From Amoebophrya sp. A120 (lineage: Eukaryota; Protista; Dinoflagellata), in the NCBI GenBank assembly GCA_905178155.1, contig CAJINV010000018.1, positions 848,609-912,608 on the forward strand: DNA of 64,000 nucleotides, read 5' to 3'. Positions 16,301 to 53,871 of this stretch are shown here, piece by piece. The position numbers were made by a program, and so were the translations under genes. How positions within the stretch are numbered: the stretch's first letter is position 1; each line of letters starts with the position of its first letter. Below the pieces are notes generated by a model. That model was not told the origin of the DNA. It did no database searches and saw nothing but the letters and a program-made list of their open reading frames with translations.

Positions 16301-16889
16301 TGGATTCGTACACTTTCGCTTGGCCGTCCGCCGGGCCGTGGGCGTGATTGAATGTGAAGACGTGGTTCGCGAATACGAGGAAATTTCCGCTCGTAATGAA
16401 ATCCGCTGACGCCGCCGCTTTGGCCGCCGCACTCTTGGAGTTGTTGTGGTCCTTATCTGAAGCCGAGTTACTCGAGCCGCTACTGCTCCCGTGTTCGTTG
16501 CTCGGCACGAGCTCCTGCAGCGTCACGGACTGGTTGTTGGGGTCTACCTGGCAGATCTGGTGGTATTTACCGCCCTCCTTTTCCCGGTCAATTGGTGGAC
16601 GAACCCGGATGACAACACGGATGTTGTGTTTCTGGTTGTGACTGTTCGTGATCTCTCCTTGTTGCTGTGCTGTGTAATGATCACCGAATGAGCCAGCACC
16701 TCCGTAGCTCTGCAAAAAGCCCCCTGGTGCGGTGGAACCAAGGCTCATCATGCCAGTTGTAGTACCTGAAGTCCTTCCGATGGAGCGGTTTTGAGAACGC
16801 GACCGCTCGCCCGACCGACCCCGCCGCATCGCCGGAAACGACTGGCGCAGGAAAAGCCCGGGGTCCGGATACGTGGCGGCACGGTCCAT
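10367..16889 (-). CDS. Kinesin motor protein with coiled-coil and Q-rich low-complexity tail (multi-exon; 3' end approximate)
   Basis: IRVVIRVRP; GYNATILAYGQTGT|GKTHTM across canonical intron 16047-16225; SYLQIYNEQISDLL; NEVSSRSH; LVDLAGSER; INTSLLSLGNVI; HIPYRDSKLTRLLEDSLGG. Confidence 0.93.
10660..10809. mobile_element. Introner family A
   Basis: TIR TAT-N-CAAAAGTATCGTAC; TSD cccgc/cccgc. Confidence 0.9.
10848..11106. mobile_element. Introner family B
   Basis: AATGTCTGGGTCTG / CAGACCCAGACAT; TSD gatcg/gatcg. Confidence 0.9.
12621..12770. mobile_element. Introner family F
   Basis: TIR AAATTTCCYGTACAYGTACAAA; TSD gcgtt/gcgct; near-identical to 36464-36613. Confidence 0.9.
13443..13678. mobile_element. 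Introner family C
   Basis: TIR TATGGC..CTCAA..GTTACATTCTCAACTGTTACA; TSD agctc/agctc. Confidence 0.95.
14731..14966. mobile_element. Introner family C
   Basis: TSD cttcg/cttcg; removal gives WTGAK|GQQLEESKKIN. Confidence 0.95.
15325..15439. mobile_element. Short introner (D-like)
   Basis: CATCCCCATCCA / TGGATGGGGATG; TSD tctcg/tctcg; removal gives SLIE|KGGKAR. Confidence 0.85.
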
Positions 16890-17355
16890 GACGCAGTTTT
16901 ATTCCGCTGGGTTGCGAGCTTTACGTAGTTCTTGCACCCGTTTCTACAAGGAGCAGGGATGTACTTAGTCGCGCTCCCGAGCAGCTACCGTGTATGCGTC
17001 GATGGTGACGCCCACACGAGGATCTTCTGTGACGCCCTCATTTTCCGTTTCAGCTATTGGGGTTCGGGTTGCCGTTCCCTTCATGTTCTTCATTTGCTTC
17101 TCATATAGATACCTATCATCGTTGCATGCACGACCACGTACTTAGAAACCAATTTTCCATCGGCCTCGTTTTCTGGTCGCCCATGCGTCACTTCATTCTC
17201 TACTCAAAATTGGAGGTCTACTTCGGATGAGCAACAATTGTAGGTACATATTTTCATCTTTGACTCCAGCTCTTTTGCAATCAGTTTTTGCTTCATCTCG
17301 ACCTAAAAGCGCGTTGCACTAGACAAGACAATCCTAAGTTGTTGTATCAAAAATT

Positions 17356-20900: not shown

Positions 20901-21082
20901 TCCCGGAGTGGAGTCCGACAGGCGGAAGTCGTGGCAGTTGTAGTACTAGGGGCCGCTGTGGCTTGCTGTGCTGGCGTGGCAAGAACGAGAACGAAGTGGA
21001 TGCAAAGAGCACGTAAAAGAGAGAACGGCCTCGTGGCTGAGGAGAAGTGAAAAAACGGAAAAAACCAGCAGGACGGAGCCAT
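17936..21082 (-). CDS. GDP-mannose 4,6-dehydratase / RMD-family extended SDR with hydrophobic N-terminal extension
   Basis: ILITGGTGMIGSQL, GDVTD, PDYVFHFAAQA, VNIIGTLNVLEA, GSSAEYG, PYG|VSK, GDLSTSRDVTDV, GEAYNVGSG, RLR|SADEKTLLADNSKLRKLTGWVP. Confidence 0.88.
18167..18342 (+). repeat. Tandem repeat, about 13-bp unit GACAGGTGACCTT
   Basis: About 13 copies directly visible. Confidence 0.95.
18721..18911 (+). repeat. 92-bp direct duplication, each copy with hairpin ggggcggac-gct-gtccgcccc
   Basis: Units start at 18721 and 18813 and are near identical. Confidence 0.95.
20279..20438. mobile_element. Introner family A
   Basis: TSD gacaa/gacaa. Confidence 0.92.
20523..20682. mobile_element. Introner family A
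   Basis: TSD tcggc/tcagc; removal gives TNLL|KKLKPDY. Confidence 0.9.
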
Positions 21083-21839
21083 CTTGATCACAGCAACTAC
21101 GTTGACCAAAAGCAAAAGCAATGAATACTACAGCGATAGACAGTCAAAATAGCGTGGCCCAGGCGGTGTGTGTTACTTATGCGGCCGAAAACGGCAAGTG
21201 TCTACTTGGACCGCGCCCCAGGAGACCGCTCTTAGAATGATGATCGCTTCGAGGGCTAAGTAGTCGGGTAGTCGACGAGAGGAGAGACTGAGTCCGCGGC
21301 GCCGGTGCAAGATCATGATCTAGCAAGTCCAAGTCGTCAGATGAATCAATCAAATTGACTGGCAAGTGCAAGTCGCACTTCTGCTTCCGTGTTGTCATTG
21401 CCTGCGTCGATGCAGCGCTGCGATAAGTACTTGTCAAAAGTTTGAAATGAGTCGAGTGGTTTATGAATGAAGATTGAGACAAGTCTCTATAGTGCCTTGC
21501 ATGTATACTATTCTTGTTTCTGTGGTAAATTGTCCAGCGCTTGTTCCCGTGTGAAAGCATTTGCTTTAGCGCTCGCAAGATTTTTGAGAAGTTGTCTGTA
21601 CTAGTTGTACGAGCTACAGATATATCGACCTTTATCGGCTACTCTTGTTCACCGGATTATTTCTCTTCGGTCTGCTTGCTTTCGCAACAGATTGTTCGGT
21701 CCGACGACTTGTTCTAAAGAGCAGAAGTAACCAATGACGGGGCAACAAACTGGTTCCAGCACTATCTTCACAGCTTGTGCAGACAAAACTACCGGTGTAG
21801 TTCGAATTCTTGGCGAAGATCGTACTATCAGAAGACGAA

Positions 21840-24800
21840 CTACAAACTGACCGCAATTGCGGTCACGTCGTCCCCCGATTGGCTCGACTGCAGCATTTTC
21901 GCCTTTTCACAGCTCGTCCGCAGGTGATCCACCCCGTTCGCAAGCAGTGCGGAAACCAAGGCAGAATTGCTATGACAGTGCACAACTCCCCCTCCCCCTC
22001 ATTTGTCATGCAAAATACCAAATCCACCCTTTGCCCTGTGGCACTGCTTGCATGACAGATTCCCGAACAAACCGAAACAGCACTACAAACAGTCGCAAAT
22101 TTGTCATGCAAAAGCTACATCCATGCGAGGACTTGTGTTGCTCCGGATGCCATCCAAATGAGGAGGAGGGGGAATTGTGCACTTTCATAATTGCTGTACT
22201 GGTTCCACAACCCCTTGGTGCCCAGAATCAAGAGCAGATCCTGGCCCGGATTGATTTTGTACGCGTTCACTTCATATCAACTGCAAAAATGTCTGGGTCT
22301 GGAAGAGTCGGGGCTTGTCATGCAGGTTTTCCATGACGCATGAGGTCTGGAATTGTGTACCTAGCATGACAAACTCTTCGAGGTCTCTAGGATGCCTATC
22401 CTGCATGAGGAATTCCCTCCCAACTTGGTCGAAAGTGGACCGGTTTTGGCACTCATGCAACACAGATCTTTGCATGATTCTGATTTAGCATTGCAAGTTC
22501 CACTCTTCCAGACCCAGACATTTTTGCAATCCATACTTCAGCCTGCGTTTTCACCACGGACAGGTCAGCGGGCAGTCCGAGGTGCCTGTCATTTTTTTTA
22601 GAGACCCTGACGCTCTGAGACCCAAACCAGCGAAACACGACGGCAGCGTGGTTTTCTTGTGTTTAGAATGACGAAAAATAAATACTCATAGCATCGTGAT
22701 TTCGATTTCTCTTGTTTTTTGGGGGATCCGCCTCTCCACGGGGATCCGCCCGCTCCCCGGGGATCCGCCTGTTACTCGGGGATCCGCCCGCTCCCCGGGG
22801 ATCCGCCTTCGCCCAGGGGATCCGCCCGTTCCCCGGGGATCCGCCTTCGCCCAGGGGATCCGCCCGTTCCCCGGGGATCCGCCTTCGTTCGCCCAGGGGA
22901 TCCGCCCCTTCCCCGGGGAACCGCCTTCGCTCAGGGGATCCGCCCGCCGGGGATCCGCCTTCGCGCAGGGGATCCGCCCGCTCCCGGGGATCCGCCTTCG
23001 CTCAGGGGATCCGCCCGCTCCCGGGGGTCCGCCCGCACCCCGGGGATCCGCCTTCGCCCAGGGGGTCCCGTCCGCCCGTTCCCCGGGGATCCGCCTTCGC
23101 CCAGGGGGTCCCGTCCGCCCGTTCCCCGGGGATCCGCCTTCGCCCAGGGGATCCGCCTGCTACTCGGGGATCCGCCCGCTCCCCGGGGATCCGCCCGCTC
23201 ACCGGGGATCCGCCTTCGCCCAGGGGATCCGCTTGTTCCTCGGGCATCCGCCCGTTCCCGGGGGATGCGCCCGTTCCCCGGGGGCTCCGCCCGCACCCCG
23301 GGGGATCCGCCTTCGCCCGGGGGGCCCACCGGTTCTCCGGGGGATCCGCCCGCACCCCGGGGATCCGCCTGTTCTGCGGGGGATCCGCCCGCGCCCCGGG
23401 GGGTCCGCCGGTTCTTCGGGGGATCCGCCCTCGCCCCGGAGGGCCGGCCCGCCTCCCGCGGATCCGCGCGCCCTCGGGGGGTCCAGCCTACGAACTTTCT
23501 TTGGGGGGATCCTCCTCAGCTCGGGGGATCCGCCCTCGCCCCGGTGCGTTCGCCCCAGCCTCCGGGGATCTCCCCTTGCCAGGAGGGATCCGATATTCGT
23601 GCTTGCCCCTCGGACTGCGCCGGCGTCGCGGGGTTTCACTCCCTCCCCGACGGACACCCGGCCAGCCCGGGGCGGGTGCGCCCTTGCGCCAGAGGCTCCC
23701 GCCTTAGGGGTCCTTGCCCTTGCCGCGTTGGCGGTGGGCACGGGCACCGGCACCGGCAAACCGGCGCACATTTCTTGTTTCGGCTTGGTTCTTCCAAGTT
23801 GTCAGCGTGTTGCTGGTTGTCAAAGCGGCGCGTTGACAACCAGCAGCAGGATCGAGATGCGACAACCACACAGAAACAGGAGGCGTCCGCACAACCACCC
23901 GAGGCCTTGAGAATCGAGAGAATGCGCGCCGGTTTGCCGCGATGCCCTGCACTCGAGTGCGTTCCAAAATCTTCCAAAATGTGCGCCGGTTTGCCGCGGT
24001 GCCCGAAATCGACGCTGTGCCGGCGGGGAAAGACCGCGAAGGACGGCGCGAATCCGGCCGGAGGATTCCGGAGAGGATTTTGGAATCCTCTCAGGAATCC
24101 TCTTCCGAAATCGAGGCAATACCGCCGGGGGAAGGGCGCGGAAGACGGCTCAACTTGGGCCAGAGGGTTCCCGAGAGGATTTCGGAATCCTCTGCGGAAT
24201 CCTCTGTGGAATCCGCGCCCGGAATCGAGGCAGTGCCGTCGGGGAAAGGGCGCGAGGGACGGGCCAACTTGGGCCAGAGGATTCCTGAGGGTGGGGATTT
24301 TGGAATCCTCTGCAGAATCCTCTGCGGAATCCTCTCGCGAAATCGAGGTAGTGCCGCCGGGGTAAGGGCGCGGAAGACGGCTCAACTTGGGCCACGGGAT
24401 TCCTGAGAGGATTTTGGAATCCACGGCGGAATCCTCTGCGGAATCCTCTGTGGAATCCTCCCCCGAAATCGAGGCACTGCCGCCGGGGAAAGGGCGCGGA
24501 AGACGGCTCAACTTGGGCCAGAGGATTCCTGAGAGGATTTTGGAATCCTCTGTGGAATCCTCTGCGGAATCCTCTGTGGAATCCTCCCCCGAAATCAAGG
24601 CACTGCCGCCGGGGAAAGGGCGCGGAAGACGGCGCAACTTGGGCCAGAGGATTCCTGAGAGGATTTTGGAATCCTCTGAGGAATCCTCTATGGAATCCTC
24701 CCGCGAAATCGAGGCACTGCCGTCGGCGAAAGGGCGCGAGAGACGGCGCAACTTGGGCCAGAGGATTCCTGAGAGGATTTTGGAATCCTCTCAGGAATCC

Positions 24801-27800
24801 TCTGCGGAATCCTCCCCCGAAATCGAGGCACTGCCGTCGGGGAAAGGGCGCGGGGGACGGCTCAACTTGGGCCAGAGGATTCCTGAGAGGATTTTGGAAT
24901 CCTCTGCGGAATCCTCTGCGGGATCCTCTGCGAAAATGTGCGCCGGTTTGCCGGGGCCGCCAGGTTGCTCGCAATCCGCAGCCGACTGTGGCGATCTGGG
25001 CGCACGAGACTGCAACGCAGACGCGGCGCGGTTGTGCAAACAAACAGCAGCGGAGTCCTTGCGCGCGCCGCGTTTTCGGTTGCATTGCAACACACTTTAG
25101 CACGAGCTAAGCCGAAGGTTTCCCGGGAAACCTTAAACGACCTTGCCCGAGCGGAATCCATTGATTTCTGGGTCTCACAGCGTCACTTTCTCTTTTTTTA
25201 AGAATCAAACTCACTTCTATTAACTTTAACTTTTATTAGAATGGTGCCAGTGCCAGTCATCCACCTCGTCACGAGCATAATTTCTGACCTGGTGATAAAA
25301 TTGAAATTCTCATTGCAAAAAACGGCTCTTGATCTTCCGCAATACCGCGTCAGCTGCTGCGGCTGCGATTCGGCTTTTGGGTTGTTTCTCAGCCTCTGTG
25401 CTTCCCCCTTGTGTGTCAATATCGTGTGGTCCTTGGAAAGCGCCACCGCACCAAAGGTACTGCCCTCGCTCTGGCTTTCCTCGCGGCTCGCAAGCACTAC
25501 ACGGGAATCCCCGATAGAACCGACCACGACCCACGATTCTTCTTCTTCGGCCGGAGTTGGACTTTTTGCTGCGCTACTCGGCGTCATCGCAGGTTGGCCT
25601 GGGGAGTGGAAAACCGCACGTGGTCATCAGCAGGAGGTACTTACTTAATAGCAGCATGTTGTGCGTGCCATACTCATCAAATGGTACTAGTGTGAAAAAA
25701 AACATCGACGTCCTATCTAACCACTTACCTTTCAATCGCAGCAGCAGTGCCAGCGCCGCAGACGCACCGTCCCCGAGTTTCAGCAACCCTTCGCCTTCTC
25801 CTCCACCGCTCGCGTTGTTTCTACCACTACTTCCTCTTGACATCGCACCCAGTTATGCAATGCAAAAGCATCGTACTGGTAGTGCAATACAAATTTCCTC
25901 AGCATTAGAAATGGAATTCGTAATGCGAGTTTACCTTGATACCTTGATACCTGAATTTGCAATTAGTACTAGTACGATGCTTTTTCATTGCATACCAGTT
26001 CCCCCTGCACGATTTCGAAGGCTTCCGCCAACACCGCCTGCGGGTTCTGGAAAATCAAAGGGTGGGAAAACATATCCTGTGCAAAAGCATTGTATTCGTA
26101 CTAGTTCTACTATGAAATGCATTACAAATTGAGTTAGCATTACAAATTGAATTTGTAATGCGGATTTGCCGTGAGATGAAAATTTGTAATGCATAAACGC
26201 GATTCGTACGAGTGCGATACTTTTGCAATGCATAAAACACCAGCTCCGCCATCCTTTGCTTGCAGTGGCGGCTGCACGTACTCCCGTTTTCGCCGAACCC
26301 GTCAAACACCGCGTAGAGCGCGATAAAGCCCTCGTTCCGCACGGTGGACAGCCAGTTGTTCGAAGATGCTGTTCCACTGGAGGAGGAGGAAGAGGATGAT
26401 GCGCTTGCTGTGGCCGCACGAGTGTTGGCACTTCCTGTTGCTGCGTGGTCTCCACCTTCCCCGATAGTTGTAGTCGTCACGATCGGACTCCTCTGCATGG
26501 CGAGCAGGAAGTCGTCCTGATTCACGGTTTTGGGGTTGCCACGGAGAGAGACCAGCCGTATGCCCAGCTTCTCCGTCCTCGTCAGAGCCGTGTCCGGGTA
26601 GCAGCTGTAACGCTTCTCCCCCGGAGAGGAGGCTTGCTCCACGCCCTGGATGATATGGCATTCTCAAACGTGACATTCTCAACCGTTACATAAATTTGTC
26701 ATGCAAGACTACCTTAAGCCGCGAGATGATCAAGCTGCTTCGCATGACAAATCTGCAAGAGGGGGCTAAACAGCATCTAAATCTGTGCCAAAGCTGTGAT
26801 GCGAAAGCAGCAACCTTGCCCCTTTGACTGTTGCCATTCTTGCATCACAAATTCATGCAACAGTTGAGAGTGTAACAGCTGAGAACGCCATAGATGACGA
26901 AAACCCAATCGGACTCCTGCTCTGGCTCGGCCGCGGGAAGGTGTATCGAATTTGAAAACGTCCCCACCCCAGAGTTGTCATGCAAGTCTGCATGCTGAAA
27001 ATGTTTGTCATGCGGAGCCCCATGAGAAGCATTTTCCATTCGTGTCTTGGAATTTGTCATGCTCCAATCAGCATGATATACTAGATCTGTGATGCTGCTC
27101 AGATAGCTCAAACAGCACTACACTACAAGTCGAAATTTGTCATGCAAAACAGCCAAACCTTGTGGATTTGTCTAGCCGAGTCCCCATCTTGACTATGGGG
27201 TGGGGACGTTTTTACTCTGGATAAGGTGGTCTACAACTTCTTCGGCACCACTTGGCGCTTGGTCGACAGTGTAATGATCTGCGGGTTGTTGCTTGTTGGC
27301 GAGACGTTCTTCTCGGGTGGTCGTGCCAGCACCGACCACTGCTTGCTCGTCCTGTAGTGCCAGTTCCGCATCCGTCGTTTTCGTCGGTGGCGACGATGGT
27401 TCGTTAGTACCTCCATACTGAAGATCTCCTTGCTGTGAAACTACACTTTGGTGTTCCGCCGGGGACGAGGCAGCGGACGAGCTGCTGATGTTCAACATTT
27501 TTCCGCTTCTCGTCTCCATCTTCAAAAGCCCGCGCAGTTTTTCGTTTTCCACGCGGAAAAATTCCACCTTTTTCACCGACTGCCTCGCCTCGAGCCGCAA
27601 CTTGTCGACCTCGAGCTCCAGGTTCTTGCACTTTTCCGTTAGACAATCGCACTGCTCGGCCTTCCTCTGCAACTCTTGGCGTAGCGTGTCCAGAATCAGG
27701 GTCTGTTCGCCCCCCGTCGGGGCGACGAGTGTAGTACCAGTTGCGCCGGAAGTAGTTGTACTACCGCCGCGGCCGTTCGGGTGAAAGGACGTAGAGGACG

Positions 27801-36288: not shown

Positions 36289-39200
36289 TCAACTTTTCAA
36301 AAACCCGGCTACGCAATCGGCGACGTCTTTGTTTTTACACGCGGCGGTGAGCTGCATGAGTATTCTGCCCTGGTTGTCTTTCCCGATCAGGGCGCGGCAC
36401 ACTACCGAAAACCCGCCCGCAAAGGTCCCCGACAGCCAGAGTTCATGCGCCGTTCTCGAGGGGTATGCAATACAAATTTCCTGTACATGTACAAAATGCG
36501 TGACAAATTTTACCAAGTTGGAGCATGCCACTTGTCATGCTGAATAGGATTGGAAGAAAAGTTTGTCATGCAGATACCACATTTGTACGTGTACGGGAAA
36601 TTTACTGTGGATAAGGGGTCTACGGTGTCGGTTTTTTCACAGGCCTCCATACCCATCGTATTGATAACACCTTCCACGGCCTTTTCGATCGAGTTGTACT
36701 CCAGTTGCAGCTTCACCATCTGCAGAGAATTTCCATTTTCCTTTAATTTCTTTGTAGTGATCGTTCCCGTGCAAGCTGCCCAAGCACACGTCAACGCAAG
36801 ATGGAGATTCTGAGTAGCATCATCAATACACGCAAGAAGACAATGCGAAGTATGATTCATACTTCACATTCAGTGACTCTGAACATACGAAAACCAATCA
36901 AAGCAAGTACCGCGCTTCCCTGTGCCTTCAACTGCTCGAAAAGCGGTTTCACCTGGCCCGGCGGAAGCAGGGCGGGGCTGACGTAGTTTCCCGGTAATAT
37001 CTCCGCGTTCTCGAGCTGCGTTTCGTCGGGAAACCCGATGTCGTCTCCATCTTCGAGTTGGTTGTAGCACAGCTTGCGCTATCAAATGCAAAAGTGTCTG
37101 GGTCTGGTTCTGGAAGATTGCGAGATTTGTCATGCTTGTCTGGCATGACCAAAAAATTTGTGATGCGTGTCCAAGCAGAGACACTTTTGCCTGTCATGCA
37201 AAAACGAAGTTTGTCATACGAAAAACGCAACACAAAAAAGCGCAGATATGTCTCATGCTTGGCTGCGCATTGCAGAGCATTCACTATTCCCAAGGCAGCA
37301 CTACAAGTTTCCAGACCCAGACATTTTTGCAGTTGATATGCACGGCAGCGACGCCGCCACGATGCCCTCGATTTTTTTCTCCAACACGAGGTATGATGAT
37401 TTGTTTTCGTTAAACTGGATCACTTCGCTCGCTTTCACCGACCCGACCAGGGAAAATTTGTCCGCGTCCTTGGGCAAAATGGTCGCCTGCACCTCGGCGT
37501 CCGCCAAGCCGACGCCCTCCAAAGTGTTGGTGATGTAAAACTCCAGCACGATGTGTATGGAACTCTCAGACGTTACATTCTAAACTGTTACATGATTTGT
37601 CATGCAAATTTACCACCAAGATCGCCGCGATTAAGGTGCTTCGCATGGCAAATCTACGAAGGGCTAAACAGCATCTGAATATGTGCCAAATCTGTAATGC
37701 AAAAGGCGCCATCTTCCCCCTTTCACTTTTGCCGTTCTTGCATGACAAATTTATGTAAAAGCTGAGAATGTAACATTTGAGAACGCCATAATGTGCCGCT
37801 GGAAGATGTGCTTGATCAGCTGAACGGAATACTCCGCCTCCAGTTCGGTCACCGGCGTGGGCTTCGTGCACGAAAGAAGATTACCTGGTAGAAGTAGTTG
37901 TAGAAGTACATCTACTAGTACTACTTTATAGTACACGACAAGAATGCTCAAGATCTTCACGGCTTCAGCTTTTTCACACTTGCTAACAAGTTGTACATCA
38001 AGAGCAGCATCATCATTCTATAGCTGTGGGTAAACAATGAGATGAAACCCTAAATCCTAAAACCCCGAAATCTTCTAGAAGCGTCTGTCGTTCTTGGAGA
38101 CAGAAATTCATTTTTGCAAAAGATCACCACTTGACTACTAGTAAGTGGAAATACGAAAAAAACATATCAGACGGACGAACGGACATAGAAAATAATCGCC
38201 CTCACCTATAGCCCCCGCAGCGTTCCCGCCGAAGAGCGGAGCGATTTTGCTGAGTACCTCGGTCGGCGTTGTGGTTGGCTTCGAGACCGCCGCGGCGACG
38301 TCGCTGACCCCCGTCGTCTATCAAATGCAAAATTGTCTGGGTCTGGAAGAATGCGCGATTTGTCATGCTGCTTTTCCATGACCCATGAGGTCTGGAATGC
38401 AGGACCTAGCATGACAGATTCTGCGAGACCTTTCTCATGCCTGTCCTGCGTGAGAAACTCCCTCCCGACTTGGTCAAAACTGGGCGACTTTTGGTAATCA
38501 TGCAACACAGATTTTTGCATGCTGCAGATTTAGCATGACAAGTTGCAATCTTCCAGACCCAGACATTTTTACAATTCATATCGTCTCGCCCGGCGCGCCG
38601 CCCGCCAGTTGCGCGTGGTGCCCGGCCAGGCCCTGCTCCTTCTGCTCTTCCAGCCTCTTCTTCTCGAGAAACTGCGCATAGGCCTCGGGCGTGGGTAGGT
38701 TCGACACGTCGATTGGCTTATTGCGGAGGTCCGGCACCGACATCTGTTTTTCGCAGAGGTCAAACAGGGCGTCAACCGAGAAGTCTTTCAGGGGCTCCAC
38801 GACGACGGTGAGGTAGTCGCCGTCCTGCGGATTCTGCTGCAGCAGCGAGGACTTGTAGAGATTGATACGGTATCAAATGTAAAAATGTCTGGGTCTGGAA
38901 GAATGCGCGATTTGTCATGCAGCTTTTCCATGACCCATGAGGTCTGGAATGCAGGACGTAGCATGACATTGGTGGTCTACGGGCAGGACGTCCCGGTGGC
39001 ACGAAAGCCGATAGTACAAGTTACTATAAACATGTAAAAAAATATAATATAAAACGAGAAAAAACCTTGAGCCAAAATGGCTACCAGGACGTAGCATGAC
39101 AGATTCTGTGCGATCTCTCTCATGCCTATCCTGCATGAGAAACTCCCTCCCGACTTGGTCAAAACTGGACGACTTTTGGCAGCCATGCAACACAGATTTT

Positions 39201-42200
39201 TGTATGCTTCAGATTTAGCATGACAAGTTGCATTCTTCCTGACCCAGACATTTTTACATTTGATATACGGTCCCGCACTTCGTCGTCGTTGTCGTTTTTG
39301 CCGCACCTGTTCGTGTTCGTTTTCGGTTTTTATTGTCTATCGATTTGCCATGCAGAAAGCCCCCTAAATCGGTAACTTTGCCATGCAAGGTAGATAAAAG
39401 AGGAATGAAAAACTACATAGCGCGGCGAGCAATTTCATGAAATGCAAGTTCTCTTGGTAAGCGAAAAACTCCAAATTGAATTGTACTCCAACAGCGTGGC
39501 AATATCTGATCGGAGGGACGGCACTTTTAACCCAACCTTCGTCAATGCGTCGGCGGCGGCCGCTCGGAGGTATGGCAACGAAGAATAAAAGCTCTATCAC
39601 AACTATCGATGCCTTTCACCCAAGAATAGGTCGGTCTCGGTACTGCACACATGCAACGGCATTGCATTATTAGCATTTCTGCAAAATACGACAATGCGCG
39701 GCAGTCATGTTTTTCTTCAGGTGAATGATTAAACCACGCACGTTCTTTTTCAACATTACGCGCGGAAGAAGCGTGCAGTATTGGATGTGGCGTAACATGT
39801 GCATTTTTAGACACGATAGTGATAGGAAAAAGCACTTTTTCGTCTTCGTAGCACCAGGGCGTTTTCTAGAATCAACCGGTTGTACATGAACCGCACGAAT
39901 TTTCCGGGCGACTGCTGCAAGGGCACGTTTTCGCCGAGAAACGCCAGGATGCGCATGCACAGATCCGGGTACTCGCAGTCCTCGATGAACTCGCAGAGGT
40001 GAAGCAAACCCTCTTTTTGCGCGACGGCGGACATTTTGGGGTACTGGATCAGGGAGACCATGGCTTCCACCAGGTCCTTTTTGAAATCCAGCGACCCTTC
40101 CTCGCGCAGGTTGGTCGACAGAAAGTGCATGATTATCATTTGCAAAAACGTCCCCACACCAGAGCCAAGATGGGAAATCTGCTAGACAAATCAGCCAGCT
40201 TTAGTCGTTTGGCATGACAAGTTTGTCCCCGTAGTGTAATCCTGTTTAGGTAGTTCAGCAGCATCACAGATCTAGTCGATCATGCTGATTATAGCATCAC
40301 AAATCCCAAAACACGACTAGAGAATGCCTCTCATGGCGCTCCGCATGACAAACTTTTTTGGCATGCAGATTTGCATGACAACTCTGGGGTGGGGACGTTT
40401 TTACCCAGAATAATGATGACCTTGTACTTAGTCGGGTACTGGAGCCCCAGGGACTTCACCGCCCGCACCACCTCGATCTTGAACACGTCCGTGATATCGG
40501 ACATGAAACTGGTTATTTGCTTCACTAACCGCTCCACGTTGGACTCATTCCCGGTCTTCAGAAGGGACGTCAAGGCCAGGGTGGCAGTACCTAGAATTCG
40601 TTTCGGTCATGTTCGTGCTCCTGCCATGCAGTGGTTCTACTTGTAGTTTTTATTCATATTTTGATCTTCCTTGTCTGTCACTAGACCACAATAATCAAGC
40701 ATCATGATGACAACGAAGAGTCATTGTCATTCTTGTTGCTCACAACTACGCAAAACCGGTGCAGCTATGTATCTTCTATACTTCTGTTTGGGTCCGACAG
40801 CAGGGGCTCCATGTCCTGGTTGCACCTGGTCACCAGTTCTGGTCTATCCTGTGCAAAAGTATCGTACTCGTAGTAATTGCATTTGCAAATATGCATAATT
40901 ACAAATCTCCATCCTAAGGCAAAACAGCATTACAAATCCCACTTTTCCTCTTGCCAAAATTTGTGATGCAGTCTATACTAGTACGATGCTTTTGCAATGC
41001 ATATGGTCTGTGTTGCGCCAGTTGGTTCAACGTGCGCGCGGCGGCAAACCGCATCACAGGCTTCGCCGACGTCAGCCCGATTTGGAGAATCTTTGGGATG
41101 TAGTGATACATTACGTCCGTTGTTTCATAGCGGTGGATGCTCGAGGAAGGTCACAACGAGGAGGTCGTGACTTTTCACATTATCTTCTACTTGTGCCAAC
41201 ATGCGGATCATGCGTCTTGATTTCATTACACCCATCGACAACGAGGCTCGCGCCAGAAGAAATGCAGAATTCTTTTTTATCTTTTTTCTTTCCTTGCGCA
41301 TCGAGAAGCCAGCGTTTGCAAGGTCAAGGAGGGAGTTTAGGGTGGTCGTAGTGTGGTGTCATTGTCAAGTGCTACAACAGCAAAACCTAAACCAACCGTT
41401 GTGGTACAAAAAGAATAAACTATACATCCACAGCCCGTGCGAAATCCACGCCGAAGAGGTGATTTATGTGCGGGTCCTGCTTCGATTCCGATATTATCAG
41501 GTTTACAAACGCCCGCGCCGCCTCGTGCGTGACCATTTCTGCCTTCTGTTTCGCCTTGAGGCAACTGTCGATGTAGGCAATTAGCGGCTTTTCGATGCCC
41601 GGGTCGCGGTCTGGAGCCATCAGCGCGTTGGCGGCGTATCTGAAGTTGGTGGAGAAAAAAATTGTGATAACGATGGACAAAAGTTTATCGGTTTTGTTGT
41701 GCCTTGCCTGTTTAAGCAAGAAAGACGAGCTGCGTGTGCGTACTTACTACAAACGAAACAGACTTAGTATAAAAATCCTTGTCGAGGAAAAATAAAGGAA
41801 AGTCAAACACAAACGCGCAATATTTTTAGGTGCAATGTCGCAAGTCACGGAAAAATGCAAGTTTTTCATGCGAGATACGAAATAAGTGATAAGAAGCGTA
41901 TTTTGAACAAAGAATGAACCTGATGAGCAGGCACTCCGCCATGGGGTTCTTCAGTTGATTTTTCGCCAAATTGGTGATCACCTTGTGCAGTCCGAGGCGA
42001 TCGTTTTTCTTGATTTCGTACAGCAGGGCCAAGGCGTGGTACTGTACCATGGAGCTCCCCGAGGACAGCACCGTTTCCTGGATTTCGTTCACCCACCGTT
42101 TGATGTATGCATTGCAAATACGTCTGCGTCTGGAACAGTGCAACTTGTCATGCTGAATCTGAAGCATGCAAAAATCTGTGTTGCATGATTATCAAAAGTC

Positions 42201-44738: not shown

Positions 44739-47700
44739 TTACTTATCCTTCGGCAGCTCCAAGATCTTCCCGATCCCCACCGTTTTTCCCTCGTCCCGTA
44801 AGGTGAAGCGACCCATCTTCTCGCAGCCCTTAAAGCTGTCCAGAGCGGCTTTCTGGTCCAAGGTGATAATGCAGGTCAGAATGTCGTTCACCTTTGCGCG
44901 CTATGCACTGTAAACAAATCGATCTGGTGCTCATGGCTCAGGAAGAACAATGCAAACTTCCACTTCGTTGACAACTACATGACAACTCAGAATGACACAA
45001 AAATCTGTTTTGCATCAGCAGCAAAAGATGACGTGGTTGCCTACAGTACACAACTTTGTCTAGTAGGAAACAACATGCGCGGAAGGAGAAAAAAGCACGT
45101 CCAACTATGTAAGGAATGCTACTTCTTCTGCTTGCCTTTATTGGCACAGCACGATCTTCATCGGAGGTTTTGCGTAGAATTTGCCTATGATTTTTCAAAA
45201 TGTGCATGACATCAAGTGAAATCTGGCAACCCTTCATCTTCCAGAACCTCCAGTCGATATTGTACAACTATTTGCCGTCGATACGAACTTCGGGTTCGGG
45301 GTTTGCTTTTTCTTGTTCGACACAATCTGCACGGTTTCCACCAGTTTCGTGATTTCGCAATCTTCAATCGCAGTGTGGAAGTGGATCACGCAGCGGTACC
45401 TGTAAATTTGAAAATGACCCGCTTGAGTCCCTTTCGCGTTGCAAGTGCAACCACTAATAAGGAAAAACATCAACTTTGTACGACGCGGCAAAATCTTGTA
45501 CGACATCTAACCACTTCTGCTGATGCATAATTACAGCAATTTCAAATGATGTAAAAATTGCACTTCTACTTAGTGGACATGGAAAATGACTATCGTAACT
45601 ACCCCGCGGTCAAGATGGGTCGCTCTTCCACCAACTCGATGATTTTGAACTGTGCCTTGAACTTTATCACGGCCCTGGCCGGTTCCTTGACGGGACAGAG
45701 CACGAACCCTTTTCGCATGTCCTCCTCGGACACCCCGCCGGTAATCTTCACCGTGACAGACTCCCCCACTACCGCGTGGCTCACTTCCTCCTCCCCAATG
45801 AAGACGGACACCGCCGTGCAGGTTTTCCCCGTGGGTTGGATCAGGCACTTCATGCCCGGCAGAACTTTCCCCTGTTCAATTTTGCCGATCGCCATCAAGG
45901 ATCCCATGTCCCGGTACCCATCCAACATGGGCATGCGCAGCGGGTCGGTGGTTTTTGCGTGAGCGGCGATGTTGAGCTCGTCGATGGTGTCGAAAAAGGT
46001 TTTCCCCGTGTACCAAGCCGGAGTCCCCTTGCGTTCCTTCAGGTTGTCGCCATTCAGTCCGGAGATAGGAAGGTAAATCACCTATATGGATTGTTCCGGA
46101 CGTCGTGAGAGAGTGGAAACAATATACAACATTTGGAAGGTGGAAAAATCGCAGGGGCACAAAGCCGTGACACGACGAGGACAATGCAAAAGATAAAGAA
46201 GTTGCACATCTGAAGTAGTTATGCCACTGCAATTCTATATTCCACAGCAGAATGAATGAAAGCCACTACAGTAGCTCTACTTGCGCGATCGTGTCTACTT
46301 AATACGTACAAGCACAAAGTGGCACAACATTCCTGTGCCTTTCTTACGTTATTCATGCAGATGCGACGCCGACGTCGCTGATGAAATACTTACGTGCATA
46401 ATTATCTCGATCGACTTTTACTCAAATACAGCAGGCAAGCCTAGAATTTACACGTCTACCTCAACCCCAGCACTCAATTCTAGTTTTAAAATTTTATAAT
46501 GAAAAGTATCGATAGTACCTGGTCCTCCTTGAAGCCGCAGGTGCTCTTTAAGAAAGGTTTCATCTTGCCGCAAATCTCGTCGTAGCGTTCCTGCTCCCAG
46601 CCCACACTGTGGTCGTCCATTTTATTTACCGCGATAATCAATTTATCCACCCCCAGGGTCTTTGCGAGCACCGCGTGTTCGCTGGTCTGCCCGCCCTTCT
46701 CAAACCCCGTCTCGAATTCACCTGGTCGTGGAGCAATAATTGCATTCATCTATCGTCCTGCTTCCTCTTACATTCCTTCTACACAAACAAGACAAAAACT
46801 CGAACGTCAACTTAAAGAAACTTTCGTAACTCTCGTGAAGAAGTAAGTAAGTACTTACTATACCTTTTCTTGCGCTGATGATCAAAACCCCGATGTCAGC
46901 CTGACTGGCGCCCGAAATCATGTTTGGTACATAAGACTTGTGACCTGGTGCGTCCAGGATGGTGAAACGTTTGTTCGTGGTGCAGAACTGCGCGCGCCCC
47001 ACTTCCACCGTCTTCCCCTTGGCTTTCTCCTCCTCACTGGTATCCATAATGTAGGCCAGAAACCAACTGTCGCGGTTTTTGTCCTTCGCCTCACGCTGGT
47101 ACCTGTGGTCAGGATGGGTGGAAAACTGTACTTTGCAAGTTTTTTGAAAAACAGAAATGCAAATTGTCATGCTACATATAGGAATAGGTGGAAAGCAAGG
47201 AAAGTATTACACCTGTCACGATGCATATGAATCAAATCGCAACCTAGTACTTTTCAATCGTTCGTTCGTCCACGTAGCCCGTCAAGTAGAGGATGTTCCC
47301 GCACGTTGTGCTCTTTCCCGCGTCGACGTGGCCGATAAAGACCATGTTCATGTGCGGTCGGGGATCCGGGTCCTTGACGGCCCCCGCCGGCTTGGCGACT
47401 ACTGCCTCCTCCGTTTCTGCTGAGGCTGCGTCGTCCGACTCCGCGGGCGAACTGAGGACTTCCTTCTTCGGTGCCGCAGGGCTGGGACTGCCCGTCTTCA
47501 GCGGCTTGGTTTGTGGTTCTGCGGCTGTTGATGCAGCTGCTGGAGGCGACGTGGCAGCGGGTGCTGGTGCTGGGGCCTCCTTTTCTACTTCTACCGGCGC
47601 CGCGCTCTTATTTTCCTTGGGAGAATTCGAAGGAGAAGTTGTGCTCTCCGCCTTGGCCGCGGGGCTTGGGCTCTGTTTAGTGGTCTGCGCTTCCTTGGCT

Positions 47701-49367
47701 GTCGGGGTCGGCTCCACGTCGGATACGTCATCGTCCCAATTGTCCTCGTCTTCCTTTACCTTCGGCTCCTCCGTATTTGGTGCGGTATCACGGCAATAAA
47801 ATTATCCATCTTCTGGTTGTTCAACAAGAAGAGCCAAAGACAACAAGTTTGATGCTGTCCGCCACAGAGACGTCAGGATCCGAGTCCAGAAGTCTGGTCG
47901 CGATACAGAATCACTTATCATAGCACCTTTTGAAACTCCTGCACCATAGATATCATGTTTGTCACCGTGACGGACACAGATAGTAGTAGTGCATGCAATA
48001 CAATAAATTTGTTGCCTTCTTGTTGATACAACTAGCTACATGATGTATTCGCTTGCATACGTCTCCTGTTTCGCCTTTGCTGCGGGCTTTTCCGCCGGAG
48101 GTGCAGCCGGCTCCTCTTTTGGCACGACGATGGGGACTGAGAAGTGGGGATTTGGGGCGCAAGAATAAAATTTATTTTGCATACGGAGGTGCAACCAGGA
48201 GGGCCCTTCCTGAATGAATCAAGGAGGTATAGGTATTTCTTGTGCTTTATTTTTCCACCAGGATATTGAGTCCTGTTCGTCAGCTTAAAACAAGTTCTGA
48301 ACAAACTGCTATTAAACATCATCGCTCCTACCTGGCTTTGCTGCTGGTTGTGCAGCTTTCTTCGCGGCTGCGGCAGCCTTGGCTGCCTCTGCTTTTGCCT
48401 TCTTCTGGGCATTGTACTCCTCTAGTGTCATTTCCTTTATGGCTTGGCTCAGATGTTACAATCTCAAGCGTTACAATAGAATTTGGAAATCTGTGATGCA
48501 AGAAGTGCATGATCTAGCCAAGTCTCATAGGACTGCGCATGACAAGTTCCGGAGTCCCAGTCCGCCCTACAATCTGGCGAAATTTGGTATTGCAGAAAGT
48601 GGAATGCTGTGCGAGTCTGTCATGCTCATCATGCAACACAAATTCCAGACTCTATTGTAACGCCTGAGATTGTAACGTTTGAGCAGGTCATATCCTTTGG
48701 CTCGGCTTTCTTCTTCGGCTGATCACCATCTGCATAGGTAGTTCGATTATGATTTTCCATGACTTTCACTGGCTATCAACATGTAACATTGATTCTCATG
48801 AACGTGTTTGGTAGGCCTTCATGACACAGACAGCGCATGAGAACGTCATCCTCAACAATATGGCTGAGAATCTACGAGCGGATCGCAACAGAATGTTCAT
48901 AATGAAAGCAGTCAAGAAACTTTTCTACTTTTTGGGCTTTTGCCGTGTTTCCCGTTGCCCTTTGATGCCTTCCCGCCGTTCTGGTAGCCGCCCTGGTTGT
49001 TATCCCACTGCTGACCACCCTGTTGCCACTGCTGATTTGGATCCCACTGCTGCCCGCCCCACTGTTGCTGTCCTCCCCACTGCTGGCCTTGGTCCCACTG
49101 TGGCTGGCCACCTGGGAATCAACAAATTCGTGCAAAGTAGTTAAAGTATAAATATCATGGTGATCGTTTTGACTGTGAAAGGGACAAAAACATGCACACG
49201 AGAAGCTAAGTAGTAAGGGCTTCTTTCTAACATCCAGATTTAGAAGTTCTTATACCCCATTGCTGTTGCTGCCATTGTTGCTGTGGGTTGTAAAATTGCT
49301 GTCCATACTGCTGTTGCGGGTATCCGTAGGCCGGTTGGCCGTACCCCTGTTGAAATCCGTTGTTCAT
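44739..49367 (-). CDS. SUP35: Eukaryotic peptide chain release factor GTP-binding subunit eRF3 (Sup35/GSPT)
   Basis: [119 protein letters not shown]. Confidence 0.95.
44902..45283. mobile_element. Decayed B-like introner
   Basis: TAT..ATA ends and residual motifs; flanks cgcgc/cgaac; removal gives PKF|AKVND. Confidence 0.65.
48438..48692. mobile_element. Introner family C variant
   Basis: GTTACAATCTCARGCGTTACAATAG TIR; TSD tcctt/tcctt. Confidence 0.9.
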
Positions 49368-49677: not shown

Positions 49678-50330
49678 ATTTTGCATTGCTCAAAATCGAT
49701 TTTGCACTCCCGCAGACGCGGACTGCACAAAATCGATTTTGCATTGCACGAAACCGAATCCCGCAAAATCGATTTTGCATTGCACAAAATTGATTTTGTA
49801 TTGCACAGCATCGATTTTGCGTTGCACAAAACCGAATCCCGATTTTGCAGTGCACAAAATCGATTTTGCATTGCACAAAACCGAAAGCAGCAAAATCGAT
49901 CTTGCAGATCTTGCATTGCACAGAAACGATTTTGCATTGCACAAGATCGATTTTGCATTGCACAAAACCGAATCCCGATTTTGCATTGCACAAAATGGAT
50001 GTTGCATTCCCGCAGACGCGGATTGCACAAAATCGATTTTGCATTGCACAAAACCGAAACCCGCAAAATCGATTTTGCATTGCACAAAATCGATCTTGCA
50101 TTGCACAAAATCGATTTTGCACTGCACAAAATCGATTTTGCATTGCACAAAACCGAATCCCGATTCTGCATTGCACAAAACCGAATCCCGCAAAATCGAT
50201 TTTGCATTGCACAAAATCGATTTTGCATGGCACACAACGCAGATTGCACAAAATCGAATCCGCAGACGCGGATTGCACAAAACCCCTCCTCCAGACGCGC
50301 AATCCCGCAGATTGCACAAAATCGATTTTC
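49678..50330 (+). repeat. Tandem array, about 21-bp unit AAAATCGATTTTGCATTGCAC
   Basis: Many copies directly visible; the AAAATCGATTTT core is a palindrome. Confidence 0.95.
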
Positions 50331-50907
50331 CATTCCCCCAGAACGCAGCGCCGACCACAAGGCCGGTTTTGAGCTGACCACAGGTGGTTCGATGTTGTGG
50401 GTCGCGCAAGGGCTGTTGAAGGCCACACAATCGCCCGACCACACAAAATCGATTTCGCAGCTTCCCAGGTCCGACAGAATCGAGCGGCCGCGTGGCTCAA
50501 TATCGAGGCGGTGCGCCACGCAATCCGCCGGGCCGACGGACTAGGGGGGAGAGCTTCCAGCTATGCGCTTTAGCGGATCTCCCACAAAATCGATTTTGTG
50601 CGTCCGCCCTTTCTTCGCGGATGCAGCCTCCCACGCCAAGGCCTTACCAACCCCCGCCCCAGCCCGCGCCCTATGAGGTACGGGCAACGGGCCCTACCGG
50701 CCACAAAATCGATTCTGCAGCCCCTCAACCCTATGGACAACGTCGGCACCTTGCCGGACATTAGATCTTCCGGAGAGATCTGGACTTCCGGAAAGATCTC
50801 GGGAGATCGCTGCGGTCCGGATTTTCCGACTTCCGGAAAATAGAGCTTCCGAGAAAATAGCAGAAAATCGATCTTGTGCCTCCATTACTATTCAATAGTA
50901 GCGGGAT

Positions 50908-51328
50908 CGGACTAAACCTGGCCCATACCATCGGCGGAGGCAGTTGCTTACTATCCAGTTGGTAATCTGCTGCCAAAAATCCAAAAAAAATCCGAAGGCA
51001 GTCGCGCTCGAGGTGTCGCACGCAAAAATCTGAGCTGTTTTGTGTTGCGTCCCGAGCAAAATAATAATTACTATTGAATAGTAACCAACTGCCTCCGCCG
51101 ATGGTATGGACCAGGTTTGGTCCGTCTCCGTTACTATTGAATAGTAACTCGCGCGCACTTTTGGCGCATTTTTGGCGCACACTCGGGCGCACTTTTGGCA
51201 CACAGAAAATGGACTTTGAAGCGCCTCCGAATCTCTTGAAAGTGCAAGCGTTCGGATTTTTGGCAGCAGATTACCAACTGGATAGTAAGCAACTGCCTCC
51301 GCCGATGGTATGGGCCAGGTTTGGTCCG
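50908..51328. repeat. 75-bp inverted repeat (50908-50982 vs 51254-51328)
   Basis: Arms are reverse complements with about 1 mismatch; partial third copy near 51086-51125. Confidence 0.9.
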
Positions 51329-53871
51329 TTCTCCTTAGCAATGAAGCAGAAAATCGATTTTCCGACTCGATTTTCGATTTCGAGGACTTGCTGATGTCCC
51401 GATCTCGATTTTCGATTTCGGAAAATTCCGGACTTTTCGCAAACTCCGGACTTTTTGAAATTTCCGGAATTTCCGGAACCCGGAAAGTCGATTTTTCGGC
51501 AGTCCCGGAAAGTCCAAGCAACGCGTGGACTTCCGGAACACTTGCTCCTCTGGATTTTCAGGAAGTTGGAAAATCGATTTTGACAAACAGCCAGACAGCC
51601 ACCTGCCTTAGCCACATAGAAGGCCCGCGCCACCTCTTTTGCCCGCACCACCACTGCCGCGGACATCGCACAAGGAGCGGGCCAACAAAATTGATTTTGC
51701 GCGCCTCGGGTGATTGAACCCGCAGACGATTCTGCGAGCCTGAAGCAACTAAAGTCCCCGGCTCTGGGCCCCATCAAGCGCCCAGCGGCTGTCGAGGACT
51801 GAGCCGCGGCACCCACCGAGGGCTGTCTGTTCACAAAATCGATTTTGCGACCCCCGCGCCAGCCGAGAGCCCGTTCCTGGCGCCTCTACGGAGCTCAGAA
51901 CACGCAGACGGGGCCCATGCCGCTCCCGCGGCTTTTCAGAACTTGGGCCCGGATGTAAGAAAGTCACAAGCTCGGGCGTTTTTCATTGGTTTCTACGCTG
52001 GGCCAACGCGATGAATGTGCGGAACTTCATCTGGGCGCAAGTTCTGGAGTTCGCGATCATCCCTAAGCCTGTAGCGTGCGAGCGAAACATCGATCCAAGG
52101 CGGGCAGAGGCCCGTCCTCTGCGACTTCGCCCCACGCAATCAATTTTGCAGCTTTTGCCGGAATTTCCGGCTTTTGTGTTGGTAAAATCGATTTTGCGAA
52201 CACGCGCGGATTGTGTGGCCCCGCCCGAGGATAGGGCATCTTCGAAAAGCGTGCCCGAAGGGTGCGCACAAAATCGAATCTGTCCGCGGGTACTCACAAA
52301 ATCGATTTTGTGAGCACCACCCGCCGGGCGGAACATGACAACCCGGCGCCCCCAACCCGGCTGCGGGAATCTTTCTGGCAGCCCGGACGCTCCAGGGTGG
52401 GGCCTAACGCCTCAGGACACCGGCAAAAACTGCCGCGAGACCGAGTTGGCGCATTCTCGAGCTTCGAGAACGCGGGCAACCGACTTCGCTTCGCGCTACT
52501 TTGCTTCGCTTGTGGACGTTAGCAGCCGCGGCACAAAGTCGATTTTTTGCGGCGTGCCTGGATTTTTTGCGGATTTTTTTCCGATTTTCTTAACATTTTT
52601 GAAGTCGGTCCAAATCAGTACTAAGATTTCTGAAGTGAAACGAAACATGAGGACATTATGTGGCACAGTTCACTACAACTAGAACTACTAGTATGGTCAG
52701 TCCATAAAATACAGATGAGTTATGCTCTTTCTTCGATCTTCAGTAGCATTTTTTCAGCAGGAAGCTTCGAGTCGCTTCATCATAGTGGAGCTTTCATTTT
52801 CGGCTTATCTCCGTTCGGACAAGATCCTTCGGTTGCTTTTTCTTGCTACGTAGATCCTTTAAAGGAGAAAGCTCATCAAAAACAAAAACGGATCTTTACT
52901 TTCGTATAAAAAACAGATCATCGCAGTGCGTTGTAATATTAATATTCAGGCTGTTACAAAGGCCCTGCGAGGCTAGCCGCAACAACTCAGAAAGACACTT
53001 CAGATCAACTCGTATGTGTCGTTCCACAGAGTATTTGAATTCACCACGTGTTTTTGAAATAGTCAACGTGAAGCACGATTTTGATCTCTTCGTCTTGCAA
53101 CAAAATTGCAACGTATCTTTTGGATGCTGAGTCTCTACGAACACAACATGCACAGGGGCAGACTCGCACTCCCTCATGACCACGAGCACTGGGTACGACA
53201 CCTCTACAGTGTCCCAAGGAAGTTTCTTTCTTGCCGGATGGTCCTGCGAAACACTAAGACGCCCGAAACGCAACAAACTTTGAACCATTATGATTTCCTC
53301 TTCATTTTGGCAACTTATAATGCCCGTTTCATCTCTATGGCCCTCACGTGTGTCACGATCTGACTCGACGTCACCCGATCCAAAGACCACCTCAACTGCT
53401 GTGTGAATTTACTTTGAAACTGTGTCAACCTCGCCTTGTATCGAATAAAAATAAACTGTGAAAATCTTTGCCTTGACAAATCACTATACCTATACCTGCT
53501 GCTGTATCGAATAAAAATAAACTGTAAAAACGCTGAACCTCCGTACTAATCCTAAAAAACGCAAGATCGCTGAGGTAGTGGTCTTCGAGGGTGAACGGAT
53601 CCTGTGAAGAGTACGCGGTGCAAAGAAATACAGCAACATCGCAAACCACCAAAAGCTGTCATTCAAAAAACATTTGTAGATTCCTGTACTAGGGATTGCT
53701 CTAGCTTGTCAGCGTTTCTTGCTCTTAGTGCTGTGGTCTAAGAAAGTACGTACAGTAAATATATTTGTCTTCCTCCCACCAAACTGAAAATTCCTTTACC
53801 GATATAATTCTACATACTGAACTAATTCTGCTGTCCTTGTTGCTGCACCACCATCAACGCGGACCGCCCTC

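What the first reader, a model, noticed from the sequence alone, without database searches (positions are those of the whole stretch)
38952..39101. Spliced-leader-capped 116-nt RNA copy inserted into an introner with a 17-bp TSD
Seen: relative to its sister copy (38319-38580), this element has an extra 116 bp flanked by a perfect 17-bp duplication (caggacgtagcatgaca). On the minus strand the insert begins GTAGCCATTTTGGCTCAAG, continues GTTTTTTCTCG, and ends ...GTAGACCACCAA with no poly(A). It also contains gcaggacgt, which matches the target site. Known: this is the 3' 19 nt of the 22-nt dinoflagellate spliced leader, and TSDs of this length typify target-primed reverse transcription. Inference: this is a retrocopy of a short trans-spliced RNA, an SL-RNA variant (the leader is followed by GT), or an SL-headed SINE-like element.
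Basis: partly seen in the sequence, partly recalled or inferred. Interest (0 to 1): 0.85.

Follow-up and report, generated by a model that had tools for sequence, protein, structure and literature searches.

The report
Leader-capped RNA copy inside jumping intron
A 116-base piece that starts with the dinoflagellate spliced leader sits between two identical 17-base repeats inside a mobile intron of a parasitic dinoflagellate; it is most likely an RNA copied back into DNA by a LINE-type enzyme and probably copied several more times afterwards, a compact example of a known process that hints at which enzyme does it.

Summary
Observation confirmed. A 116-nt insert (38969-39084, minus strand) begins with 19 of the 22 spliced-leader bases, has no poly(A) and lies between exact 17-bp repeats. 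The site is empty in 8 of 8 sister introners in the window and lacks this insert in 22 of 22 readable copies from a related assembly. The host is an Amoebophrya A120-type inverted-repeat introner in gamma-COP, skipped in a transcript-like contig. Best reading: a tailless, LINE-type retrocopy of a leader-capped RNA. New here: contig depth implies about 4-8 genomic copies of the tail-side junction, so either the loaded introner was re-copied (favoured) or an element hits this site repeatedly. The body is U-rich, then GC-rich; its source locus was not found. An SL-RNA variant is unlikely. A second introner copy in the related assembly carries an unrelated 130-nt insert with a 15-bp duplication. 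Leader-tagged retrocopies are known in dinoflagellates, and this scan earlier noted duplication-flanked ones on other DNA. The long duplication argues for non-LTR machinery, against a published preference for Ty1/copia.

The parts
38969..39084 (-). 116-nt insert: leader-headed, tailless RNA copy (inferred retrocopy)
   Evidence: absent from 8 of 8 window sisters and 22 of 22 readable related copies
39066..39084 (-). 3' 19 nt of the 22-nt dinoflagellate spliced leader, flush with the junction
   Evidence: leader sequence as printed in PMC6616646
39012..39065 (-). U-rich segment (32 T of 54; about 18% GC), starts GT; among the most T-rich 0.07% of 54-nt windows on this strand
38969..39011 (-). 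GC-rich 3' segment (about 65% GC); covered at about 7.5 times single-copy depth in run X1
   Evidence: change point p<0.0005; depth 220.4 against 25.8-35.1
38983..38991 (+). 9 nt identical to the target site (38951-38959); unexplained
   Evidence: p 0.004-0.007 post hoc
38952..38968 (.). 17-bp target-site duplication, copy at the 3' end of the RNA-sense insert
39085..39101 (.). 17-bp target-site duplication, copy at the leader end
38871..39265 (.). Host introner B: 262-bp inverted-repeat element plus 133 bp; terminal 20 nt perfectly inverted; 5-bp direct repeat at 38866-38870 and 39266-39270
   Evidence: 3.4% from family majority; termini fit the A120 motif in PMC7789003 section 11
38581..38864 (-). 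gamma-COP exon downstream of introner B
   Evidence: X3 contig 9; open frame through the junction
39265..39305 (-). small gamma-COP exon upstream of introner B
   Evidence: 40 unlaid letters of X3 contig 9 and depth in that bin; frame fits
38319..38580 (.). Sister introner A with the empty site
   Evidence: skipped in X3 contig 9
42192..42935 (-). 5' coding part of the host gene, coatomer gamma subunit
   Evidence: Adaptin_N 3e-30; gamma-COP 3tjz_B 1.8e-37

Best explanation
The 116-nt insert begins with the spliced leader, lacks poly(A) and lies between 17-bp repeats inside a spliced mobile intron; it is likely a leader-capped RNA copied into DNA by a LINE-type (non-LTR) reverse transcriptase, and the loaded intron was probably copied again a few times. 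Shown: leader at the junction, exact duplication, empty sites, host introner skipped in a transcript-like contig, several copies of the tail-side junction by depth. Inferred: (1) an endonuclease nicked the introner 17 bp apart on the two strands; (2) the enzyme started on an RNA end or internal point without poly(A) and stopped 3 nt short of the capped 5' end; (3) the insert fell in the interior, the terminal stem is predicted intact, so splicing went on and selection ignored it; (4) a transposase working on the inverted repeats later spread the loaded introner. The piece is most likely a neutral passenger.
For: Anatomy and empty sites (0 of 8 and 0 of 22 copies carry it). It meets three of the four screening marks of tailless retropseudogenes in PMC5322556 (5' end within 5 nt, 8-35-nt duplication, no tail). 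X3 contig 9 matches three exon blocks (476 nt, 0 differences) and skips 38865-39264; predicted terminal stem is the same with and without the insert. X1 has one contig of depth 109.4 with a single different letter at 38970, laid across the junction, and 220.4 in all at 38970 and 38981, against 25.8-35.1 for single-copy contigs: about 4 and 7.5 copies; X7 has 117.8 there while its unique flanks have none. The G at 38958 is in both repeats and in 0 of 22 other aligned copies, so the duplication came from this lineage of the introner. A second copy of the family (L023) has an unrelated 130-nt insert with a 15-bp duplication. PMC7789003 reports non-LTR retrotransposons and identical introner pairs in Amoebophrya.
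Against: The source RNA was not found, so 3' truncation and trans-splicing are unproven. No reverse transcriptase among 62 ORFs scanned in the window. No listed contig spans the insert; depth falls to 3.9 (X1) and 11.8 (X7) at 39018-39068 (the tool warns that a filter makes such holes). The bin totals fit equally well a multi-copy stretch ending near 39011, exactly where base composition changes, which favours rival 1. Introner B is no younger than typical copies (3.4% from majority; range 1.5-15.3%). X1 may be the sample the window was assembled from and X7 is the same sample; whether the strain behind X3 carries the insert is not shown. The 9-nt target match is not in a register that could prime the observed 3' end.
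Confidence: 0.5

Rival explanations
1. A small retroelement family inserts repeatedly at this introner site. Either the whole 116 nt is a leader-headed SINE-like element, or the GC-rich last ~43 nt is the 3' end of a non-LTR element and this copy is a template-switch chimera (leader-capped RNA 5' part plus element 3' end), like U6/L1 chimeras.
For: Several copies of one junction with a one-letter variant; sharp U-rich/GC-rich break at about 39011 matching one reading of the depth (42.7 positions); 9-nt target likeness near the 3' end; both duplication-flanked inserts seen (window and L023) lie within 3 nt of the edge of the same 7-nt introner motif, which 12 of 524 strand-positions do (motif chosen after the fact, n=2). 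Chimeras of this form are described for L1, L2 and RTE (PMC4476161).
Against: 0 of 22 readable related copies have any such element at this site; no A-tail or short tandem repeat at the 3' end; no Pol III box A/B match (loose recalled patterns); L023 insert is unrelated in sequence (p 0.77-0.93); one event plus re-copying needs fewer assumptions.
Confidence: 0.25
2. The insert is a retropseudogene of the SL RNA itself or of a read-through variant: leader exon plus intron starting GT.
For: GT follows the leader; only 5% of AG dinucleotides in the window are followed by GT (374 of 7404). No poly(A), as for SL RNA. Amoebophrya SL introns are reported as divergent (PMC3101222); longer SL genes are claimed for Fugacium (PMC6616646).
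Against: Donor is GTT, not the GTA conserved across Dinozoa (PMC9399869) nor GTACA of the dinoflagellate probe; a six-U run follows at once; length about double the 50-60 nt norm; no Rfam match at gathering score or any meaningful one at E<=10; folding z -1.3; PMC7789003 reports a single complete leader gene per genome, whose sequence is in a figure I could not see.
Confidence: 0.1
3. Repair of a staggered break captured a cDNA fragment, with local templating giving the 9-nt target match; no LINE endonuclease involved.
For: No tail; 9-nt target match that includes the copy-specific G; a local inverted duplication at the same site in L005 shows the site is prone to templated rearrangement.
Against: An exact 17-bp duplication with a clean leader end, and a second 15-bp case in the family, fit a dedicated nicking enzyme better (general knowledge, recalled).
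Confidence: 0.1
4. Assembly artefact or cDNA chimera.
For: No listed contig spans the insert; low depth in its middle.
Against: The tail-side junction is laid in two runs that cover introns or repeats like DNA (X1, X7) and not in the exon-only run X3; a chimera would not make a 17-bp duplication carrying a private letter twice.
Confidence: 0.05

Closest known systems
DinoSL-tagged retrogenes / recycled processed cDNAs of dinoflagellates (Slamovits and Keeling 2008 as cited; PMC5585692; PMC6050394)
   Same: Leader sequence fixed in genomic DNA as the mark of a reverse-transcribed, trans-spliced RNA.
   Different: No coding sequence (only ATG opens 18 codons), no poly(A), exact duplication still present, inside a spliced introner; those papers (passages read) define retrogenes by relic leaders upstream of ORFs and PMC6050394 favours Ty1/copia as the machinery.
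Tailless retropseudogenes of therian mammals (PMC5322556; 3'-truncated snRNA copies, PMC4476161)
   Same: Nearly complete 5' end, no A-tail, duplication of 8-35 nt.
   Different: Source RNA and 3' complementarity unknown here; target is not L1's TT/AAAA; enzyme unidentified.
snRNA/LINE template-switch chimeras (U6/L1; PMC4476161)
   Same: Possible two-part build: cellular RNA 5' end plus a repeated 3' end in one duplication.
   Different: 3' part not shown to belong to any LINE; twin-priming layout does not fit because the leader 5' end, not a truncated 3' end, abuts the repeat.
Amoebophrya A120 introner elements (PMC7789003; PMC12130899)
   Same: Host element: TAT-N7-AAA inverted termini, short direct repeat, about 260 nt, spliced without GT-AG.
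   Different: Carries retro-derived cargo; cargo-bearing copies are not described in the passages read.
Dinozoan SL RNA genes (PMC3101222; PMC9399869; PMC6616646)
   Same: Leader followed by GT.
   Different: Lacks the first 3 nt, lacks GTA, T-run at the donor instead of 30-40 nt further on, too long, flanked by a duplication.

Membership tests
Leader-tagged retrocopy (TPRT type) | Spliced leader at the 5' junction | tested here: met
   19 of 22 nt flush with the repeat
Leader-tagged retrocopy (TPRT type) | Long target-site duplication and empty ancestral site | tested here: met
   17 bp exact; empty in 8 of 8 window sisters; insert absent from 22 of 22 readable related copies
Leader-tagged retrocopy (TPRT type) | 3' poly(A) or tandem-repeat tail | tested here: not met
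   hence filed as the tailless variant
Leader-tagged retrocopy (TPRT type) | Parent locus with AG acceptor and no leader | not testable with these tools
   no genome held; no match elsewhere in window or in 24 loci
Tailless retropseudogene (criteria of PMC5322556) | 5' end within 5 nt of complete; TSD 8-35 nt; at least 30 nt; no tail | tested here: met
   3 nt missing, 17 bp, 116 nt
Tailless retropseudogene (criteria of PMC5322556) | 3' truncation of at least 10 nt and pairing of RNA with the nicked target | not testable with these tools
   source RNA unknown
SL RNA gene or pseudogene | Leader followed by donor GT(A) | tested here: inconclusive
   GT present, GTA absent
SL RNA gene or pseudogene | 50-68 nt unit ending in a T-tract | tested here: not met
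   T-runs at insert positions 21, 31, 43; body runs to 116
SL RNA gene or pseudogene | Intron homologous to the organism's SL-RNA gene | not testable with these tools
   sequence is in Fig. S6 of PMC7789003, only the legend was readable; Zhang 2009 not held
SINE | Multiple dispersed copies, each with its own TSD | tested here: inconclusive
   about 4-8 copies by depth, but sharing one junction
SINE | Pol III internal promoter or LINE-derived 3' tail | tested here: inconclusive
   no box A/B match with loose recalled patterns; no resident LINE available to compare
Amoebophrya A120-type introner (host) | TAT-N7-AAA inverted termini and 3-5-nt direct repeat | tested here: met
Amoebophrya A120-type introner (host) | Removed from the transcript; repeated family | tested here: met
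   X3 contig 9, RNA status a guess by the tool; 9 copies in window, 23 loci in a related assembly

The most novel reading that the evidence does not exclude
Amoebophrya has a short retroelement headed by the spliced leader (or a non-LTR element whose 3' end captures leader-capped RNAs) that targets one motif inside its inverted-repeat introners, using self-removing mobile introns as a safe landing site and being carried further by their transposase.
Probability: 0.2. Interest if true: 0.72.

Novelty: new variant of a known kind. Interest (0 to 1): 0.45.

Why it matters
PMC6050394 (section 7) says it is unknown which retroelement makes dinoflagellate retrocopies and favours LTR Ty1/copia. An exact 17-bp duplication around a leader-headed copy, and a 15-bp one in a relative, point to non-LTR target-primed insertion (LTR integrases leave about 4-6 bp; recalled), and give a simple genome-wide test in a compact genome. 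It also shows that Amoebophrya introners tolerate, and may spread, foreign cargo, which bears on how these non-canonical introns are recognised (ends, not interior). The piece itself is probably functionless.

Tried and rejected
Rfam: 0 matches at gathering score in the window, two chance matches at E 1.5 and 9.5 around the insert, none for the L023 insert. Folding not unusual (z -1.32). No other leader piece of 10 nt or more in the window; one 11-nt piece in 64,168 bases of related loci. No RT among 62 of 73 long ORFs scanned (11 ORFs, all in two tandem-repeat regions, left out). Runs X17-X19 carry the same species label, but X17 gave no reads on the exons, so it says nothing on expression; no RNA holder was listed. 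The L011 insertion was first noted as LINE-like; it matches the end of an unnamed A120 protein (72 of 79 residues) with no Pfam family at threshold and only sub-0.9 Atlas leads, so that label is withdrawn. Likeness between the window insert and the L011 or L023 inserts is chance (p 0.20-0.93). Twin priming rejected on layout. Read on the plus strand the insert is a GC-rich body plus an A-rich run, so a leader-capped antisense transcript of a repeat is possible but would not explain the shared junction. Contigs behind the loci are not held for a family search. Paper searches: (dinoflagellate, SL RNA, retrotranspos, target site duplication) 0 papers; (Amoebophrya, retrogene, DinoSL) 0; searches listed nothing describing such an insert; the library lacks most subscription papers.

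Full report
Observation. The 17-mer at 38952-38968 recurs once, at 39085-39101, and cannot be extended; the 116 nt between read on the minus strand as leader, U-rich stretch, GC-rich stretch, with no poly(A). The 19-nt leader piece is the only match in the window with up to three mismatches (chance 0.01) and equals the 3' end of DinoSL as printed in PMC6616646 and PMC5585692. All 8 sister copies aligned lack the 133 extra bases. The 9-nt match between insert and target is real, p 0.004-0.007 by shuffling, chosen after the fact.

Setting. No genome is held. The host element has TAT-N7-AAA inverted termini and a 5-bp direct repeat, the pattern given for Amoebophrya A120 introners in PMC7789003 section 11; the organism is therefore inferred to be of that type. 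The gene is gamma-COP on the minus strand, so the insert is in the sense of the pre-mRNA. In run X3 (RNA is the tool's guess) one 4336-nt contig matches three exon blocks without a difference and skips introner A and introner B with its insert; the joined exons give an open frame. The predicted terminal stem of the intron is the same with and without the insert. Whether the strain behind X3 carries the insert is not shown.

Empty sites elsewhere. A scan of metagenome contigs with an introner motif returned 24 loci; 23 are the same family from one assembly, one (L008) is a chance match, one (L001) ends before the site; 0 of the 22 readable copies carry the insert. In an alignment of 22 other copies (18 uninterrupted related copies, 4 from the window) the column at 38958 is C 20, T 1, A 1; B has G in both repeats, so the duplication was made from B's own lineage. 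L023 holds an unrelated 130-nt insert between exact 15-bp repeats at another site of the same family: long-duplication insertions into these introners are not unique.

Copy number. In X1, which covers introns and exons evenly, single-copy contigs have depth 25.8-35.1. At 38970 and 38981 the summed depth is 220.4, and one contig of depth 109.4 differs by one letter at 38970, 31 letters from its end. A difference listed inside an alignment at the second base of the insert means the contig is laid into the introner side as well (inference from the table). That gives about 4 copies of the variant and up to about 7.5 in all (overlapping contigs can inflate the total). X7, same sample, shows 117.8 there and nothing on unique flanks. 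Depth at 39018-39068 is only 3.9 and 11.8, but the tool warns that a filter leaves holes, and even the window's own copy is missing there, so the hole does not tell whether the whole insert or only its GC-rich end is repeated. X1 may be the source of the assembly and is not independent.

What the RNA was. After the leader come 54 nt with 32 U, among the top 0.07% of windows on that strand, then 43 nt of about 65% GC; the break near 39011 is sharp (0 of 2000 shuffles). The only ATG opens 18 codons. Rfam and folding show nothing. GT follows the leader, which 5% of AG sites do, but the GTA conserved in Dinozoa is absent and the length is about double the norm (PMC9399869 and PMC3101222 passages); Amoebophrya SL introns are reported as divergent, and the A120 gene is in a supplementary figure I could not see, so this rival is lowered, not excluded. 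The parent locus was not found.

Mechanism. Most likely a non-LTR reverse transcriptase nicked the introner, copied a leader-capped RNA from a non-polyadenylated end or internal point, stopped 3 nt short of the cap, and left a 17-bp duplication: a tailless retrocopy in the sense of PMC5322556 (passages) and PMC4476161 section 8. Because introner removal seems to rest on its ends, the cargo was tolerated, and the loaded introner was then probably re-copied (0.5 for the whole account; about 0.85 for an RNA-derived, target-primed origin shared with rivals 1 and 2). The main rival (0.25) is an element that hits this site repeatedly, as a leader-headed SINE or as a template-switch chimera; the composition break, one reading of the depth (42.7 positions), the 9-nt target likeness and the closeness of both observed insertions to one 7-nt motif (12 of 524 positions, n=2) favour it, while 0 of 22 related copies with an element at this site is against it. 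No RT lies in the window (62 ORFs); PMC7789003 and PMC12130899 report non-LTR elements in Amoebophrya.

Comparison and novelty. Leader-tagged retrocopies are well known in dinoflagellates (PMC5585692 passages; PMC6050394; Slamovits and Keeling 2008 seen only as a citation). This scan's earlier notes list duplication-flanked leader retrocopies in other genomes (unchecked AI notes, not support). I found no paper on such an insert in Amoebophrya or inside an introner, in a library that lacks most subscription journals. What is different here is the tailless, non-coding form, the introner host and the repeated junction. It bears on the open question stated in PMC6050394 section 7, which favours Ty1/copia; a 17-bp duplication fits non-LTR insertion rather than an LTR integrase (4-6 bp, recalled).

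Papers seen: PMC7789003 passages, sections 5, 10, 11, 31 and supplement legends; PMC6616646 parts 1-2 of 3; PMC4476161 passages and section 8; PMC6050394 passages and section 7; PMC3101222, PMC9399869, PMC5585692, PMC12130899, PMC3942190, PMC5322556 passages only; Zhang 2009 not held.

Verdict. Real feature; new variant of a known kind; interest 0.45.

Noticed in passing
L023:1349-1508: 130-nt insert between exact 15-bp repeats in the same introner family, at another site; no leader, no Rfam match, unrelated to the window insert.
   Followed up: partly
L011:827-1267: 441-nt insertion replacing about 6 bp of the introner; 3' part of a Cys/His-rich ORF (72 of 79 residues identical to unnamed Amoebophrya A120 protein P0001) ending in GAT repeats; no duplication seen; nature unresolved.
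   Followed up: partly
L005:1520-1590: Local inverted duplication (hairpin) at the same introner position as the window insert.
   Followed up: no
window 6789-8498 (-): ORF with glycosyl hydrolase family 49 N-terminal and dextranase solenoid domains, an unusual family for a dinoflagellate.
   Followed up: no
window 18140-18385, 22680-23580, 24000-25000, 49680-50350: Tandem arrays with 13-, 19/20-, 114- and 21-nt periods.
   Followed up: no
window 53437-53525 and 51068-51148: 23-nt and 18-nt exact direct repeats 66 and 63 nt apart; short local duplications, not examined.
   Followed up: no
window 14877-16898, 19124-21127, 45602-47801 (all -): Kinesin, GDP-mannose dehydratase-like and translation-GTPase genes, co-oriented with gamma-COP; more than 20 TAT-type inverted-repeat introners of several families in the window.
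   Followed up: no
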